A stretch of DNA of 64,000 nucleotides. It comes from Escherichia coli (GTDB lineage Bacteria; Pseudomonadota; Gammaproteobacteria; Enterobacterales; Enterobacteriaceae). The DNA is taken from NCBI RefSeq assembly GCF_003334305.1, contig NZ_QOWS01000003.1; one strand, 5' to 3'. This document shows, one piece after another, positions 38,236-42,428 of this stretch (positions within the stretch are counted from its first letter, which is position 1; the number at the start of each line of letters is the position of its first letter). The position numbers and the translations under genes were made by a program. A model generated the notes under the pieces. The model did not search any database, was not told the DNA's origin, and worked only from the letters and a program-made list of their open reading frames with translations.

Positions 38236-39891
38236 TTACTTCTGTAACCACCAGACAGCCTCAAAAGGCCGTAAAGTCATGGCACAGGGTTGTGGTGAGG
38301 CTTCTTCGTAGTTATGCATCACAAGCTGCCAGTTGCCGCGCATTTGCCCTGGCTGCCAGGGTTGGATCTCACGGCTAAGGTTGGCAATGACCAGCAAGGT
38401 TTGCCCCTTCCATTCACGGCGATAGCACCACAATACAGGGCTGTTTGGCAGCAGATCCTGGTAATTGCCCCATGTCAGGATGGCTTCTTGCTTACGCAGT
38501 GCGATTAACTTTTGGTAGGTGTAAAACACCGAGGAGTCATCGGCCAGCGCGGCTTCTACGTTGATTTGTTGATAGTTATCGCCCAGGCCAATCCACGGTT
38601 CGCCAGCCGTAAACCCGGCATTATCGCCGTTGCTCCATTGCATGGGCGTGCGGCTGTTGTCACGGGATTTACTGGCGAGGATTGCCAATAACTCGTCGGC
38701 ATCACGACCATCGTTGCGCAGCTCGGCAAACATATTGAGGCTCTCCACGTCGCGATAGTCAGTAATGCGCGTGAAATGCGGGTTGGTCATGCCAATCTCT
38801 TCGCCCTGGTAGATATACGGCGTTCCCTGCATGCCATGCAGCACCATCGCCAGCATTTTTGCCGCAGGCACGCGGTATTCACCTTCATCACCAAAGCGAG
38901 AAATAATGCGCGGCTGATCGTGGTTACACCAGAACAAGGCATTCCATGCCACGTTGTGCATTCCTTGTTGCCAGTGGCGGAACAATGTTTTCAACGCCAC
39001 AAAGTCAGGTTTAGCCAGCGTCCATTTTTCACCACCGGGATAATCGACCTTCAGGTGATGAAAATTAAAGGTCATCGACAATTCACTGCCTGTCAGTGCC
39101 GCGTATCGCTGGCAATGCTCAAGGCTGGTGGAGGACATTTCACCTACGGTCATTAACCCGCGTGGCGTAAACACATCGCGGTTCATCTCGTGCAAAAACT
39201 CGTGTGCTCGTGGCCCGTCGGTGTAAAAGCGACGCCCGTCGCCATCCAGGTCTTCAGGGAAACGCGGGTCTTTGGAGATCAGATTCACCACATCCAGGCG
39301 CAACCCGTCGACCCCACGATCGGCCCAGAATTCACAGACTTTTTTCAGCTCTGCGCGTACCGCTGGATTCTCCCAGTTGAGATCCGCCTGTTCTGGTGCA
39401 AAGAGATGCAAATAGTACTGTTCGCTTTCCGCATGCCAGCGCCACGCACTACCGCCAAATTTTGAACGCCAGTTGTTCGGTGGCGTTTCTGGTTCGCCAT
39501 CGCGCCAGATATAAAACTGGCGGTAAGGGCTTTCTTTGTTCAGCGCCTCGCGAAACCAGGCATGTTGGGTAGAGGTATGGTTAAACACCATATCAAGAAT
39601 GATACGAATCCCGCGCGATTTTGCCTGCGTCACCAGTTCGTCAAAATCGTCCAGCGTGCCGTAGGTGGGATCAATCGCCGTATAGTTCGCTACGTCGTAA
39701 CCGTTATCGACCTGGGGAGAGATATAAAAGGGGGTTAGCCAGATGGCATCAACGCCCAGTTTATGCAGATAGTCCAGGCGTTGGATAACGCCACGTAAAT
39801 CGCCGGTGCCGCTACCCGTGGTGTCCTGAAAACTCTTTGGATAAATCTGGTAGATAACGCCGTTTTGCCACCAGTGGGGAAGATTAGTCAT
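38236..39891 (-). CDS. treC: trehalose-6-phosphate hydrolase
   Basis: Protein MTNLPHWWQNGVIYQIYPKSF... (GH13 family); ATG 39889-39891; ORF-track start 40038 is an upstream extension. Confidence 0.95.
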   Translation of the reverse strand: MTNLPHWWQNGVIYQIYPKSFQDTTGSGTGDLRGVIQRLDYLHKLGVDAIWLTPFYISPQVDNGYDVANYTAIDPTYGTLDDFDELVTQAKSRGIRIILDMVFNHTSTQHAWFREALNKESPYRQFYIWRDGEPETPPNNWRSKFGGSAWRWHAESEQYYLHLFAPEQADLNWENPAVRAELKKVCEFWADRGVDGLRLDVVNLISKDPRFPEDLDGDGRRFYTDGPRAHEFLHEMNRDVFTPRGLMTVGEMSSTSLEHCQRYAALTGSELSMTFNFHHLKVDYPGGEKWTLAKPDFVALKTLFRHWQQGMHNVAWNALFWCNHDQPRIISRFGDEGEYRVPAAKMLAMVLHGMQGTPYIYQGEEIGMTNPHFTRITDYRDVESLNMFAELRNDGRDADELLAILASKSRDNSRTPMQWSNGDNAGFTAGEPWIGLGDNYQQINVEAALADDSSVFYTYQKLIALRKQEAILTWGNYQDLLPNSPVLWCYRREWKGQTLLVIANLSREIQPWQPGQMRGNWQLVMHNYEEASPQPCAMTLRPFEAVWWLQK

Positions 39892-39940
39892 TACGTTATT
39901 CCTGCAAATGCGAGGGGGCGCAATTGCGCCCCGAAGAAAA

Positions 39941-41362
39941 TTAAACAATATCCAGCGTGCCCAGGCGGTATTTCCGCTGATAGATAAACGAGGTGAGTAC
40001 AATCGGGATGATGATGGCGATAACCATTGCCAGCGCAAATACCTGCCAGTAGCTCGGTTGAATCGAGAGAATTCCCGGCAGGCCGCCTACGCCGATACCA
40101 TTCGCCATAACGCCGTTCAGGCCGCATAGTAATCCTGCCAGACCAGAACCAATCATCGCGCACAGCATCGGGAAGCGATATTTCAGGTTGATGCCGTACA
40201 TTGCAGGCTCAGTGACCCCAAGCCAGGCGGAGATAGCGGCAGGCACGGAGATCTCGCGTTCATTGTGCTTGCGGCTGGAAATGATAATGCCTATCACGGC
40301 GGAGCCCTGAGCGATATTCGACAGCGCAATCAGCGGCCACACTGGCGTGCCACCCATGCTTTGAATCATCTGCAAATCAATAGCAAGGGTGGTCTGGTGT
40401 ACGCCGGTGATCACCAGCGGCGCGTACAGGAAGCCAAACAATGCCGCACCAATCGGAGCAAAGCTGCCGGTCATCAGGTGACGTACCGCAAAGGCAACGC
40501 CATCGCCAATCATGCGACCAAACGGACCAATCAGCGCATGGGCGAGGAACACCGCGAGGATCAGCGAACAGACGGGCACCACCACCAGATAGAGGTAATC
40601 CGGTACGATGCGTTTAAGGCGAGTTTCAATAACGCCCAGCGCCAGCCCGGCTAACAGTGCCGGGATCACCTGCGCCTGATAGCCCACTTTGGCGATGCTG
40701 AACATGCCAAAGTCCCACACTTCCGGCAGCTGCTGCCCGAGCAGATAAGCGTTCATCAGCTGGGGGGAAACCAGTGTCACGCCAAGCACGATACCAAGGA
40801 TCGGCGTGCCGCCCATTTTTTTCACCGCTGACCAGCAAATCCCGACCGGCAGGTAGAAGAAGATCGCTTCACCGATCAACCACAGAAAATCGTAGATCGT
40901 TTGCAGGGAAGGGTACATTTGCGCCAGCGTTTGACCGTTGCTCATGGGCAAATCGCCGATCACATTACGAAAACCGAGGATCAAACCGCCGCTAATCAAC
41001 GCGGGCAGCAACGGGAAGAAGATCTCCGCGAAATGAGAGATCAACTGCTCATGCCATTTCATATTCTGCCGGGCGGCTTTTTTTACCTGCTCTTTATCAA
41101 CCTGCGCCTGTCCGGTTGACGCTATTAGTGCTTGATAGTAATCACCCACGTTGGTGCCAATCACCACCTGAAATTGCCCGGCATTGGTGAAACAGCCTTT
41201 CACCATGGGGAGTTGCTCAATTTCTTTCGGTCTGGCATTGGCCGGTTGGTTGAGGACAAAGCGCAGGCGAGTAATACAGTGGCTCACCGTCGCAATATTG
41301 CCGCGCCCGCCGACCAGTTCAATCAACCGATCGATATCCGTTTGGTTTATTTTGCTCATCAT
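39941..41362 (-). CDS. treB: PTS trehalose-specific EIIBC component
   Basis: 473-aa protein with N-terminal EIIB cysteine motif (VSHCITRLRF) and EIIC membrane domain. Confidence 0.95.
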   Translation of the reverse strand: MMSKINQTDIDRLIELVGGRGNIATVSHCITRLRFVLNQPANARPKEIEQLPMVKGCFTNAGQFQVVIGTNVGDYYQALIASTGQAQVDKEQVKKAARQNMKWHEQLISHFAEIFFPLLPALISGGLILGFRNVIGDLPMSNGQTLAQMYPSLQTIYDFLWLIGEAIFFYLPVGICWSAVKKMGGTPILGIVLGVTLVSPQLMNAYLLGQQLPEVWDFGMFSIAKVGYQAQVIPALLAGLALGVIETRLKRIVPDYLYLVVVPVCSLILAVFLAHALIGPFGRMIGDGVAFAVRHLMTGSFAPIGAALFGFLYAPLVITGVHQTTLAIDLQMIQSMGGTPVWPLIALSNIAQGSAVIGIIISSRKHNEREISVPAAISAWLGVTEPAMYGINLKYRFPMLCAMIGSGLAGLLCGLNGVMANGIGVGGLPGILSIQPSYWQVFALAMVIAIIIPIVLTSFIYQRKYRLGTLDIV

Positions 41363-41428
41363 AAAGCCCCATGGCAGATGACATTTTTGGTTGGCTGCAG
41401 AATATATTGCGCGGAAAAATTTAAAAAC

Positions 41429-41440
41429 GGGAACGTTCCC
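41429..41440. promoter_or_regulatory. perfect palindrome GGGAACGTTCCC in the treR/treB intergenic region; candidate TreR operator
   Basis: 12-bp perfect palindrome about 70 bp upstream of treB. Confidence 0.55.
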
Positions 41441-41480
41441 GAAACGCAGCGAAGATCACAATTTATCGTTCAGGAAACGA

Positions 41481-42428
41481 TCAGGACAGGGTGGCGGGGA
41501 TGATGATTTGTTGCGGTTCGCTGCGCCCGGTTACCTGTGCGATCAATTGGCAGGCCGCCTGGCGTCCAGCTTCGGCGTAGCCAGGATCTACGGTGACGAT
41601 CTCCGGATGAAGGAATTTCATTAACGGCGTATTACCGACGCTCGCCAGTTGCAAGGTGTCGATGCGTTGCTCTTGCAGGTATTTACTTGCGCCAAGAGCC
41701 AGAGTGTCGGTTGCGCACAGTAACGCGGTAGTTTCAGGCGTAATCACTTTTGCTACGTTTTCATAGCCTTGCTTCATAGCAAGCCCTGGCAGAGCGGCAA
41801 CGGGATGCAGTTTATGCGCTTTGCAGAACGCCAGGTAGGCTTCGTGACGTCGCTTCCCGGTCGTCACGTCACTATGCGGCACGCCGAGATAACTGATATT
41901 GCGATGCCCCTGGTCATAGAGCCGTTGCATCAGGATCTTGATTGCCCCTTCGTCGTCATAACAGACCGAAGCAAAGCCTTTTGCGTCACGCGCCAGCAGA
42001 ACCAGCGATGACTGCCAGTGGGCTAACATTTCTTCTGTTATGCCAGTAAAACCGAACAACACTACGCCGTCGATATTACGCCGTTTCAGCACCCCCAAAT
42101 GTTCGGCAACTAATTGCGGGGAAAACTGACTTTCCATCATGATTGGGTCGTAACCTTGTTCATAGAACGCTGGCAGCATGGTTTGAACAGCGAGATTTTC
42201 TGACAACGAATCCAGGCGGGTAACAATGATGGCGACCACTTTATCGCTTTGCCCACGCATAGCGCGCGCAGAGCGGGAAGGGGAAAATCCATGCTGATTC
42301 ATCACTGCTTCAACACGCTCGCGGGTGCGCTGGCTCACGCCGCTTTCGTTATTCAGCACCCGGGAAACCGTAGATTTCCCCACGCCGCTTAAGCGCGCGA
42401 TGTCTTTGATGGTCAGCCGATTTTGCAT
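41481..42428 (-). CDS. treR: trehalose operon repressor (LacI family)
   Basis: 315-aa protein with N-terminal LacI-type HTH (MQNRLTIKDIARLSGVGKSTVSRVLNN). Confidence 0.95.
   Translation of the reverse strand: MQNRLTIKDIARLSGVGKSTVSRVLNNESGVSQRTRERVEAVMNQHGFSPSRSARAMRGQSDKVVAIIVTRLDSLSENLAVQTMLPAFYEQGYDPIMMESQFSPQLVAEHLGVLKRRNIDGVVLFGFTGITEEMLAHWQSSLVLLARDAKGFASVCYDDEGAIKILMQRLYDQGHRNISYLGVPHSDVTTGKRRHEAYLAFCKAHKLHPVAALPGLAMKQGYENVAKVITPETTALLCATDTLALGASKYLQEQRIDTLQLASVGNTPLMKFLHPEIVTVDPGYAEAGRQAACQLIAQVTGRSEPQQIIIPATLS

What the first reader, a model, noticed from the sequence alone, without database searches (positions are those of the whole stretch)
41429..41440. Perfect GGGAACGTTCCC palindrome upstream of treB
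A 12-bp perfect palindrome lies in the treR/treB intergenic region, about 70 bp upstream of treB. It is the probable TreR (LacI-family) operator controlling treBC.
Basis: partly seen in the sequence, partly recalled or inferred. Interest (0 to 1): 0.2.

Follow-up and report, generated by a model that had tools for sequence, protein, structure and literature searches.

The report
TreR operator of E. coli treBC
The palindrome is real and is almost certainly the already-described DNA site where the trehalose repressor TreR sits on the treB promoter of E. coli, so it is a correct but ordinary finding.

Summary
GGGAACGTTCCC lies at 41429-41440 and extends to a perfect 14-mer, CGGGAACGTTCCCG (41428-41441). 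It sits in the 118-bp treR-treB spacer, 66 nt before the treB ATG. The spacer is identical to E. coli K-12.

A 12-bp palindrome is not rare in itself: the window holds 15, against about 19 expected. The evidence for function is comparative:
- The 12-mer is invariant in 75 of 75 treR-treB spacers from Enterobacteriaceae species, while most of the rest of the spacer diverges.
- It stays with treB when an island separates treR from treB, and it is absent where treR has no adjacent treB.
- The same motif, with at most one mismatch, lies beside treB in seven distant lineages whose TreR is only 35-47% identical.
- The TreR recognition helix is invariant across those lineages.

A published K-12 transcription start (SMRT-Cappable-seq) maps to window 41392. 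That puts the palindrome centre at -42.5, between a conserved CRP-like TGTGA site (-60.5) and the TATATT -10.

The best reading is a LacI-family operator from which TreR blocks RNA polymerase until trehalose-6-phosphate releases it. A role as the treR terminator is poorly supported. This is already known (Horlacher & Boos 1997, which I could not read here). Interest is low.

The parts
41428..41441 (.). TreR operator. The perfect 14-bp palindrome is CGGGAACGTTCCCG; the invariant 12-bp core GGGAACGTTCCC is at 41429-41440. The centre is at -42.5 relative to the treB start.
   Evidence: Searches give the sequence. Searches show it invariant in 75 of 75 Enterobacteriaceae spacers. Searches show the same motif in distant TreR-treB loci. 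One search gives a PWM score of 21.6 bits, against 10.6 for the next best site in 64 kb.
41445..41460 (-). CRP-like site, TGTGATCTTCGCTGCG on the - strand. The TGTGATC half is conserved and the other half is poor. The centre is at -60.5, 18 bp from the operator centre.
   Evidence: TGTGATC is invariant or nearly so at a fixed 20-nt offset in 75 spacers. The same offset, with a better second half (TCTCA), is seen in the distant locus L085. Assigning it to CRP is an inference from the consensus TGTGA-N6-TCACA.
41401..41406 (-). -10 hexamer TATATT of the treB promoter, at -14 to -9.
   Evidence: A TAnnnT pattern is conserved at a fixed distance (22 nt) downstream of the palindrome in 75 spacers. 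It lies 8 nt upstream of the mapped start. The simple sigma-70 scan found no full promoter because there is no good -35.
41392..41392 (-). treB transcription start, NC_000913.3 position 4466210.
   Evidence: The SMRT-Cappable-seq operon table (PMC6131387, supplementary file 3) lists treB and treB-treC transcripts that both start at 4466210. The mapping to window coordinates uses an offset of 4424818, derived from the Term-seq table of PMC7815308.
41481..42428 (-). treR, the LacI-family trehalose operon repressor (315 aa).
   Evidence: NCBIfam TIGR02405 equivalog, 590.7 bits against a cut-off of 357. RefSeq annotation of identical DNA agrees.
39941..41362 (-). treB, the PTS trehalose EIIBC component; the regulated gene.
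   Evidence: NCBIfam NF008236, 974.6 bits. RefSeq annotation agrees.
38236..39894 (-). treC, trehalose-6-phosphate hydrolase; second gene of the operon. The start codon is approximate.
   Evidence: NCBIfam NF008183 and TIGR02403. Co-transcription with treB is shown in the SMRT-Cappable-seq table.

Best explanation
The palindrome is the operator of the trehalose repressor TreR in the treBC promoter of E. coli.

Proposed mechanism:
1. A TreR dimer binds, with one helix-turn-helix per GGGAAC half-site and the hinge helices over the central CG.
2. It occupies about -49 to -36. That is the DNA between the CRP site (-60.5) and the -10, where the alpha-CTD and sigma region 4 of RNA polymerase must dock at a CRP class-I-type promoter that has no good -35.
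3. Occupancy therefore prevents polymerase recruitment and CRP-dependent activation.
4. Trehalose-6-phosphate, made when trehalose enters through TreB, binds the TreR effector domain and lowers its affinity for DNA, which frees the promoter.

Shown here: the site, its position relative to the mapped start, its conservation, its linkage to treB and to TreR orthologues, and the invariance of the TreR recognition helix.

Inferred, or taken from literature recalled from memory: physical binding by TreR, induction by trehalose-6-phosphate, and the occlusion mechanism.
For: 1. Sequence and genes. The treR-treB spacer is 100% identical to K-12, so work on K-12 applies directly.
2. Phylogenetic footprint. 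In 75 of 75 species-level Enterobacteriaceae genomes with adjacent treR-treB, the 12-mer is exact, while most other spacer columns carry little information. The conserved block is TGTGATC-N9-TTTCGGGAACGTTCCC(A/G)TTT, followed by a TAnnnT 22 nt downstream.
3. Linkage to treB rather than to the treR 3' end. In L036 and L047 a 1.8-kb hcp island separates treR from treB, and the palindrome stays 72-74 nt from treB. In L004, L005, L030 and L033, treR has no adjacent treB and the palindrome is absent.
4. Distant orthologues with TreR 35-47% identical. Sites with at most one mismatch lie in the treB or treR-treB regulatory region in 7 of 7 lineages with usable flanks, and two lineages have two sites each. 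The chance of such a 12-mer match in about 150 bp is roughly 3e-4 per locus.
5. The recognition helix V-x-KSTVSRV-x-N and the hinge residues P50, S53, A54 and R55 are invariant across those orthologues.
6. Position. The mapped start is at 41392, so the operator centre is at -42.5 and the CRP-like centre at -60.5.
7. Uniqueness. The PWM score is 21.6 bits, against 10.6 for the runner-up in 64 kb.
8. The identical consensus TGGGAACGTTCCCA is reported for another LacI-family repressor, Streptomyces CebR2 (PMC9953190), so this word is a bona fide LacI-family operator type.
Against: No direct binding data could be inspected. Horlacher & Boos 1997 and Klein et al. 1995 are not held, and no held paper quotes the operator sequence.

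PMC3505978 states that RegulonDB lists two TreR sites at treBC. I find only one strong site in E. coli. The next best site in the spacer (41472-41485, AGGAAACGATCAGG) scores 1.6 bits and is not conserved outside Escherichia and Citrobacter.

The element also matches a crude terminator pattern downstream of treR.

Conservation alone cannot say which protein binds.
Confidence: 0.93

Rival explanations
1. The inverted repeat plus the following T-run is chiefly the intrinsic terminator of treR. On the - strand the RNA would read CGGGA-ACGU-UCCCG followed by UUUUUAAAUUUUU, starting 40 nt after the treR stop. Its role would be to end the treR transcript and shield treB from read-through.
For: The consensus terminator scan reports it: 5-bp stem, 4 G-C pairs, 4-nt loop, T-run. 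The hairpin alone folds at -7.0 kcal/mol with z = -2.1. It lies on the same strand as treR and downstream of it.
Against: The stem is very short and, in context, folds no better than shuffled sequence (z = -0.53). In most Enterobacteriaceae the closing C-G pair is lost (3' flank A), leaving a 4-bp stem, and that context again folds no better than shuffles (z = -0.32).

The palindrome follows treB, not treR, when the two are separated, and it is missing after treR where treB is absent. In L090 the sites lie upstream of treR, and in L088, L091 and L093 no T-run follows the site.

The Term-seq table for MG1655 lists no 3' end between 4466176 and 4467576 on this strand. That is only a weak negative, because treR is poorly expressed.
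Confidence: 0.03
2. The site is the operator of some regulator other than TreR, such as a different LacI-family protein or a global factor, and TreR binds elsewhere.
For: Conservation does not identify the binding protein. An identical consensus serves an unrelated LacI-family repressor in Streptomyces, so the word is not unique to TreR.
Against: The motif co-occurs with TreR orthologues and treB across lineages down to 35% TreR identity, and the TreR recognition helix is invariant. The E. coli spacer offers no alternative palindrome of comparable quality. The spacer has no other conserved block apart from the CRP-like half-site and the -10.
Confidence: 0.03
3. It is a chance palindrome with no function.
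For: Perfect 12- and 14-bp palindromes are as frequent in the window as in simulated sequence.
Against: It is invariant in 75 of 75 species while its surroundings diverge, and it recurs in distant lineages at the equivalent place.
Confidence: 0.01

Closest known systems
TreR operator of the E. coli K-12 treB promoter (Horlacher & Boos 1997, J Biol Chem 272:13026; Klein, Horlacher & Boos 1995, J Bacteriol 177:4043)
   Same: This is the same locus with the identical spacer sequence, the same repressor gene, and a palindrome just upstream of the -35 position. I regard it as the same object.
   Different: I know of no difference. I could not read the papers, so the exact footprint limits, and the second site that RegulonDB is said to list, remain unchecked.
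LacI/GalR-family operators in general (lacO-sym, PurR box ACGCAAACGTTTGCGT, FruR, GalR, CcpA cre)
   Same: It is an even palindrome of 14-16 bp with a central CG step into which the hinge-helix leucines insert. It binds a dimer and overlaps the promoter of a sugar-catabolic operon next to the regulator gene.
   Different: The half-site is GGGAAC rather than the (T)GnAAnC variants of PurR, GalR or LacI. There is a single strong site, with no evidence here for auxiliary operators or looping in E. coli.
CebR2 box of Streptomyces scabiei (consensus TGGGAACGTTCCCA; PMC9953190)
   Same: It is the same 14-nt consensus as the TreR sites found here in distant lineages, and the regulator belongs to the LacI family.
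   Different: The phylum, effector (cello-oligosaccharides) and regulated genes (an ABC transporter) are all different. The relationship between the two regulators was not examined here.
CRP class I promoters with a repressor bound between CRP and RNA polymerase (CytR/deoP2-type arrangement)
   Same: A CRP-like site at -60.5 and a LacI-family repressor centred at -42.5 place the repressor on the DNA used by the alpha-CTD.
   Different: CytR needs protein-protein contact with CRP and has a weak, gapped operator. Here the operator is a strong perfect palindrome, and no CRP-TreR contact is implied or tested.

Membership tests
LacI/GalR-family operator (specifically the TreR operator) | Even inverted repeat of about 14-18 bp with a central CG | tested here: met
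   CGGGAAC|GTTCCCG is a perfect 14-mer with a central CG.
LacI/GalR-family operator (specifically the TreR operator) | Cognate LacI-family repressor encoded at the locus | tested here: met
   treR lies immediately upstream on the same strand and matches the TIGR02405 equivalog at 590.7 bits.
LacI/GalR-family operator (specifically the TreR operator) | Lies within or overlaps the promoter of the regulated operon | tested here: met
   The centre is at -42.5 relative to the SMRT-Cappable-seq start 4466210 (window 41392), between the CRP-like site and the -10.
LacI/GalR-family operator (specifically the TreR operator) | Motif conserved in orthologous regulatory regions and co-occurring with the regulator | tested here: met
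   Exact in 75 of 75 Enterobacteriaceae spacers. At most one mismatch in 7 distant TreR-treB lineages. Absent where treB is absent.
LacI/GalR-family operator (specifically the TreR operator) | DNA-reading residues of the regulator conserved where the motif is conserved | tested here: met
   V16, K18, S19, T20, V21, S22, R23, V24, N26 and hinge residues P50, S53, A54, R55 are invariant across orthologues of 35-47% identity.
LacI/GalR-family operator (specifically the TreR operator) | Physical binding by TreR, relieved by trehalose-6-phosphate | not testable with these tools
   To my memory this was reported by Horlacher & Boos 1997, but the paper is not held. The PDB search returned only the TreR effector domain (4xxh) and no TreR-DNA complex.
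Intrinsic (Rho-independent) terminator of treR | Stable G+C-rich hairpin immediately followed by a U-run | tested here: inconclusive
   It passes a crude scan. The stem has only 5 bp, at -7 kcal/mol, and in context is no better than shuffles (z = -0.53). Most relatives have only a 4-bp stem.
Intrinsic (Rho-independent) terminator of treR | An RNA 3' end mapped at the U-run | tested here: not met
   The MG1655 Term-seq table (PMC7815308, supplementary file 1) has no - strand 3' end between 4466176 and 4467576. This is a weak negative because treR is poorly expressed.
Intrinsic (Rho-independent) terminator of treR | Element travels with the 3' end of the upstream gene | tested here: not met
   It stays with treB in L036 and L047, is absent after treR in L004, L005, L030 and L033, and lies upstream of treR in L090.
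CRP class I-type activated promoter | CRP site (TGTGA-N6-TCACA) centred near -61.5, on the same helical face as polymerase | tested here: inconclusive
   The TGTGATC half is invariant and centred at -60.5, but the second half is poor in E. coli (CTGCG). CRP binding itself was not tested.

The most novel reading that the evidence does not exclude
In E. coli and its close relatives the operator may do double duty. As DNA it binds TreR. As RNA, a 5-bp hairpin plus U5A3U5 at the end of the treR transcript, it may act as a weak terminator or pause site that limits read-through from the treR gene into treBC. Repressor gene and target promoter would then be insulated by one 14-bp element.
Probability: 0.1. 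Interest if true: 0.25.

Novelty: already known. Interest (0 to 1): 0.08.

Why it matters
This finding matters little beyond correct annotation. The treBC operon and its repressor are a textbook-level E. coli sugar system, and the operator was characterised in the 1990s.

What this check adds:
- The comparative picture: the 12-mer core and the TreR recognition helix are invariant from Enterobacteriaceae to lineages with about 35% TreR identity.
- A consistent promoter map: CRP-like site at -60.5, TreR at -42.5, -10 at -14 to -9, and the start at window 41392.

Both are useful for regulon annotation and for anyone using TreR and its operator as a trehalose-6-phosphate biosensor part. Neither is surprising.

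Tried and rejected
1. Reading the primary literature. Horlacher & Boos 1997 (by PMID and by DOI) and Klein et al. 1995 (by PMID and by PMC id) are not held. Full-text searches for the operator word and for phrases such as 'treB promoter' or 'TreR operator' found nothing on E. coli.

2. A second TreR site in E. coli. PMC3505978 cites RegulonDB for two sites. The best candidate is AGGAAACGATCAGG at 41472-41485, 44 bp from the main centre and overlapping the treR stop. It scores only 1.6 bits (rank 94 in the window) and is not conserved beyond Escherichia and Citrobacter. I do not claim it. Two-site arrangements do exist in two distant lineages (L086/L087 and L090).

3. The first mapping of K-12 coordinates was wrong by 10 nt. 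I had assumed that the Term-seq table sequences end at the 3' end. The table's thrL row shows they carry 10 nt downstream of it. The corrected offset is 4424818. With the wrong offset the start would have had no -10.

4. The sigma-70 scan finds no promoter. This fits an activator-dependent promoter that lacks a -35, and it does not argue against a promoter.

5. Cappable-seq supplements (PMC4782308) contained no entry for this region in the held text. The supplements of Dar & Sorek 2018 are not held.

7. L082, a TreR relative from Logan, is a C-depleted assembly that looks bisulfite-converted, so it was discarded. L089 is too short to judge.

Full report
**Observation.** The - strand between treR and treB reads ...TGA tcgtttcctgaacgataaat TGTGATcttcgctgcgtttC GGGAACGTTCCC Gtttttaaatttttccgcgcaa TATATT ctgcagccAaccaaaaatgtcatctgccatggggctttATGATG.... 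The word GGGAACGTTCCC is at 41429-41440, as reported. The perfect palindrome is 14 bp long (CGGGAACGTTCCCG, 41428-41441). NCBIfam equivalog models identify the flanking genes, all on the - strand: treR (41481-42428), treB (39941-41362) and treC. mgtA follows on the + strand. The window is E. coli. 5415 of 5426 complete E. coli genomes hold at least 80% of the 261-bp query around the palindrome, and the treR-treB spacer is identical to K-12. Sixty-six nucleotides separate the palindrome from the treB ATG.

**Is it more than chance?** As a palindrome, it is not. The window has 15 perfect 12-mers, against 19 +/- 4.7 in Markov-1 simulations, and 7 perfect 14-mers, against 4.8 +/- 2.2. The prior for one in this particular 118-bp spacer is about 0.03 for a 12-mer and 0.007 for a 14-mer. 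The only related word in the window, at two mismatches, lies inside a 577-aa ORF. The argument therefore has to come from comparison and position.

**Comparative evidence, close relatives.**
- A scan of one genome per species with a TreR alignment returned 80 loci from Escherichia, Citrobacter, Salmonella, Enterobacter, Klebsiella/Raoultella, Kosakonia, Kluyvera, Buttiauxella and others, with TreR 83-99% identical.
- In all 75 loci where treB follows treR, the 12-mer is present without a single substitution.
- In an alignment anchored on the palindrome, most other spacer columns carry little information. The conserved block is TGTGATC-N9-TTTCGGGAACGTTCCC(A/G)TTT. A TAnnnT follows 22 nt downstream: TATATT in E. 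coli, TATACT in Citrobacter, TAGGCT in Enterobacter and TAGGAT in Raoultella.
- The outermost pair of the 14-mer is not conserved.

**Which gene does it belong to?** Two natural experiments answer this. In two Enterobacter genomes (L036, L047) a 1.8-kb insertion separates treR from treB. It carries an orphan hcp/tssD gene and a 230-aa ORF. The palindrome, the TGTGATC and the -10 all stay 72-74 nt upstream of treB. In four genomes where treR is not followed by treB (L004 Escherichia sp., L005 E. whittamii, L030, L033), the palindrome is absent from the whole locus. The element is therefore part of the treB promoter and not of the treR 3' end.

**Comparative evidence, distant relatives.** An exhaustive HMMER search gave full-length TreR relatives of 35-47% identity. 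I fetched the encoding contigs for seven of them. Each lies next to a PTS EIIBC gene, usually followed by an alpha-amylase-family (treC-like) gene. The sites found were:

| Locus | Site or sites | Position |
|---|---|---|
| L083 | TGGGAACGTTCCCA | 70 nt before treB; TATAAT 24 nt downstream |
| L084/L085 | CGGGAACGTTCCCA | TGTGA at the same 20-nt offset as in E. coli, with a better CRP second half |
| L086/L087 | TGGGAACGATTCCA and TGGGAACGTTACCA | two sites 46 bp apart |
| L088 | TGGGAACGTTCCCA | 28 nt before treB |
| L090 | TGGGAACGTTACCA, twice | 58 bp apart, upstream of treR |
| L091/L092 | TGAGAACGTTCCCG | 21-22 nt before treB |
| L093/L094 | TGGGAACGTTCCCT | 26 nt before treB |

A match with at most one mismatch to a 12-mer is expected about 3e-4 times in a 150-bp region. 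Across the same proteins the helix-turn-helix recognition helix (V16, K18-V24, N26) and the hinge residues (P50, S53, A54, R55) are invariant, while overall identity is 35-47%. An unchanged reading head paired with an unchanged operator is what a cognate pair should show. A PWM built from these sites scores the E. coli site at 21.6 bits. The runner-up in the 64-kb window scores 10.6.

**Position in the promoter.** The SMRT-Cappable-seq operon table for MG1655 lists two transcripts, treB-treC (4463009-4466210) and treB alone (4464727-4466210). Both start at 4466210, and treB is given a single start (PMC6131387, supplementary files). To convert coordinates I used the Term-seq table of PMC7815308. 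Its 61-nt strings hold 50 nt upstream, the 3' end itself and 10 nt downstream, which I verified on the thrL row. That gives K-12 coordinate = window coordinate + 4424818. The resulting map is:

| Element | Window coordinates | Position relative to start |
|---|---|---|
| Transcription start (A) | 41392 | +1 |
| TATATT | 41406-41401 | -14 to -9 |
| 12-mer palindrome | 41440-41429 | -48 to -37, centre -42.5 |
| TGTGA-N6 16-mer | 41460-41445 | centre -60.5 |

No recognisable -35 exists. With a 17-bp spacer the hexamer would be CGTTTT, which explains why the simple sigma-70 scan found nothing. It also fits an activator-dependent promoter.

**Mechanism.** Steps 1-3 are inferred from general knowledge of LacI/GalR repressors and CRP class I promoters.
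1. A TreR dimer on -49 to -36 occupies the DNA where the alpha-CTD, recruited by CRP at about -61, and sigma region 4 must sit.
2. Polymerase cannot form a closed complex.
3. Trehalose-6-phosphate binding to the effector domain loosens the DNA grip.

That trehalose-6-phosphate is the inducer is cited in PMC3505978, Table 1. That TreR footprints to a palindrome directly upstream of the -35 is my recollection of Horlacher & Boos 1997, which I could not open. The PDB search returned only the TreR effector domain (4xxh) and no DNA complex.

**Rival: treR terminator.** The scan tool flags CGGGA-ACGT-TCCCG plus TTTTTAAATT on the - strand, 40 nt past the treR stop.
- The hairpin folds at only -7 kcal/mol and in context is no better than shuffles (z = -0.53).
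- Most genera lose the closing pair, and that context also folds no better than shuffles (z = -0.32).
- The element follows treB, not treR, as described above.
- Distant lineages lack the T-run or place the sites upstream of treR.
- Term-seq lists no 3' end anywhere between 4466176 and 4467576 on this strand.

I keep a minor secondary role at about 10%, as the 'novel case'.

**Open point.** PMC3505978 says that RegulonDB lists two TreR sites at treBC. I see one strong site. The next best site in the spacer (41472-41485) scores 1.6 bits and is not conserved. Either RegulonDB annotates a weak auxiliary site, or it splits the footprint into two. This does not affect the identity of the palindrome.

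**Comparison with known systems and verdict.** This is the known TreR operator of the E. coli treBC operon, a standard LacI-family operator. The same 14-nt consensus, TGGGAACGTTCCCA, is used by the LacI-family CebR2 of Streptomyces (PMC9953190). The finding is already known and of low interest.

Noticed in passing
L095 (E. coli HB101, NZ_CP184671.1), corresponding to window ~41446/41447: In this HB101 assembly an IS1A element sits between treR and treB. The match to the window breaks after 41446, which is between the TreR palindrome and the TGTGA half of the CRP-like site. The insertion should separate the treB promoter from its presumed activator site.
   Followed up: partly
L036 1614-3415 and L047 3449-5308: Two Enterobacter genomes carry a ~1.8-kb insertion between treR and the treB promoter. 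It holds an orphan hcp/tssD gene (TIGR03344, 1e-33) and a 230-aa ORF with no family match. L036 keeps a duplicated fragment of the treR 3' end just before the promoter.
   Followed up: partly
L004, L005 (Escherichia sp. E1V33, E. whittamii), L030, L033: Here treR is intact but is not followed by treB within 2.5 kb (1.7 kb in L033, which ends at a contig end), and the locus has no GGGAACGTTCCC. These are either orphan repressors or treBC has moved elsewhere in the genome. In L004 a 614-aa ORF with no NCBIfam match lies downstream.
   Followed up: partly
window 39915-39932 (treB-treC spacer): A second strong palindrome, GGGGCGCAATTGCGCCCC (perfect 14-mer at 39917), lies between treB and treC. 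It sits about 5 nt upstream of the Term-seq 'primary' treB 3' end (4464728, about window 39910) and the SMRT-Cappable-seq end of the treB-only transcript (4464727). This looks like a partial terminator or a stabilising hairpin inside the operon, with no U-run.
   Followed up: partly
window 41358 (K-12 4466176): Term-seq reports a 3' end only 35 nt downstream of the treB start and 4 nt into the ORF, classed as 'internal' (PMC7815308). It may be a short abortive or attenuated leader transcript, or a processing product.
   Followed up: no
window 41464-41480: A small hairpin, AUCGUUUCCUGAACGAU, lies directly after the treR stop codon (-5 kcal/mol, z = -2.7). It is conserved in Escherichia and Citrobacter with an apparent compensatory change (CGTT/AACG to CGCT/AGCG) and is absent in other genera. 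Its function is unknown, and it overlaps the weak candidate second TreR site.
   Followed up: partly
L082: A Logan assembly (SRR18107613) encoding a TreR relative is almost free of C on one strand; for example TGGGAATGTTTTTA stands where CGGGAACGTTCCCA is expected. It looks like an assembly of bisulfite-converted reads, and its gene did not translate to the query protein, so the stored protein may be an artefact.
   Followed up: no
literature (PMC7567609): Reg-Seq lists TreR, identified by mass spectrometry, as the protein bound at a repressor site in the yedK promoter. This would be a TreR target outside treBC. The yedK sequence is not in this window and was not checked for the motif.
   Followed up: no
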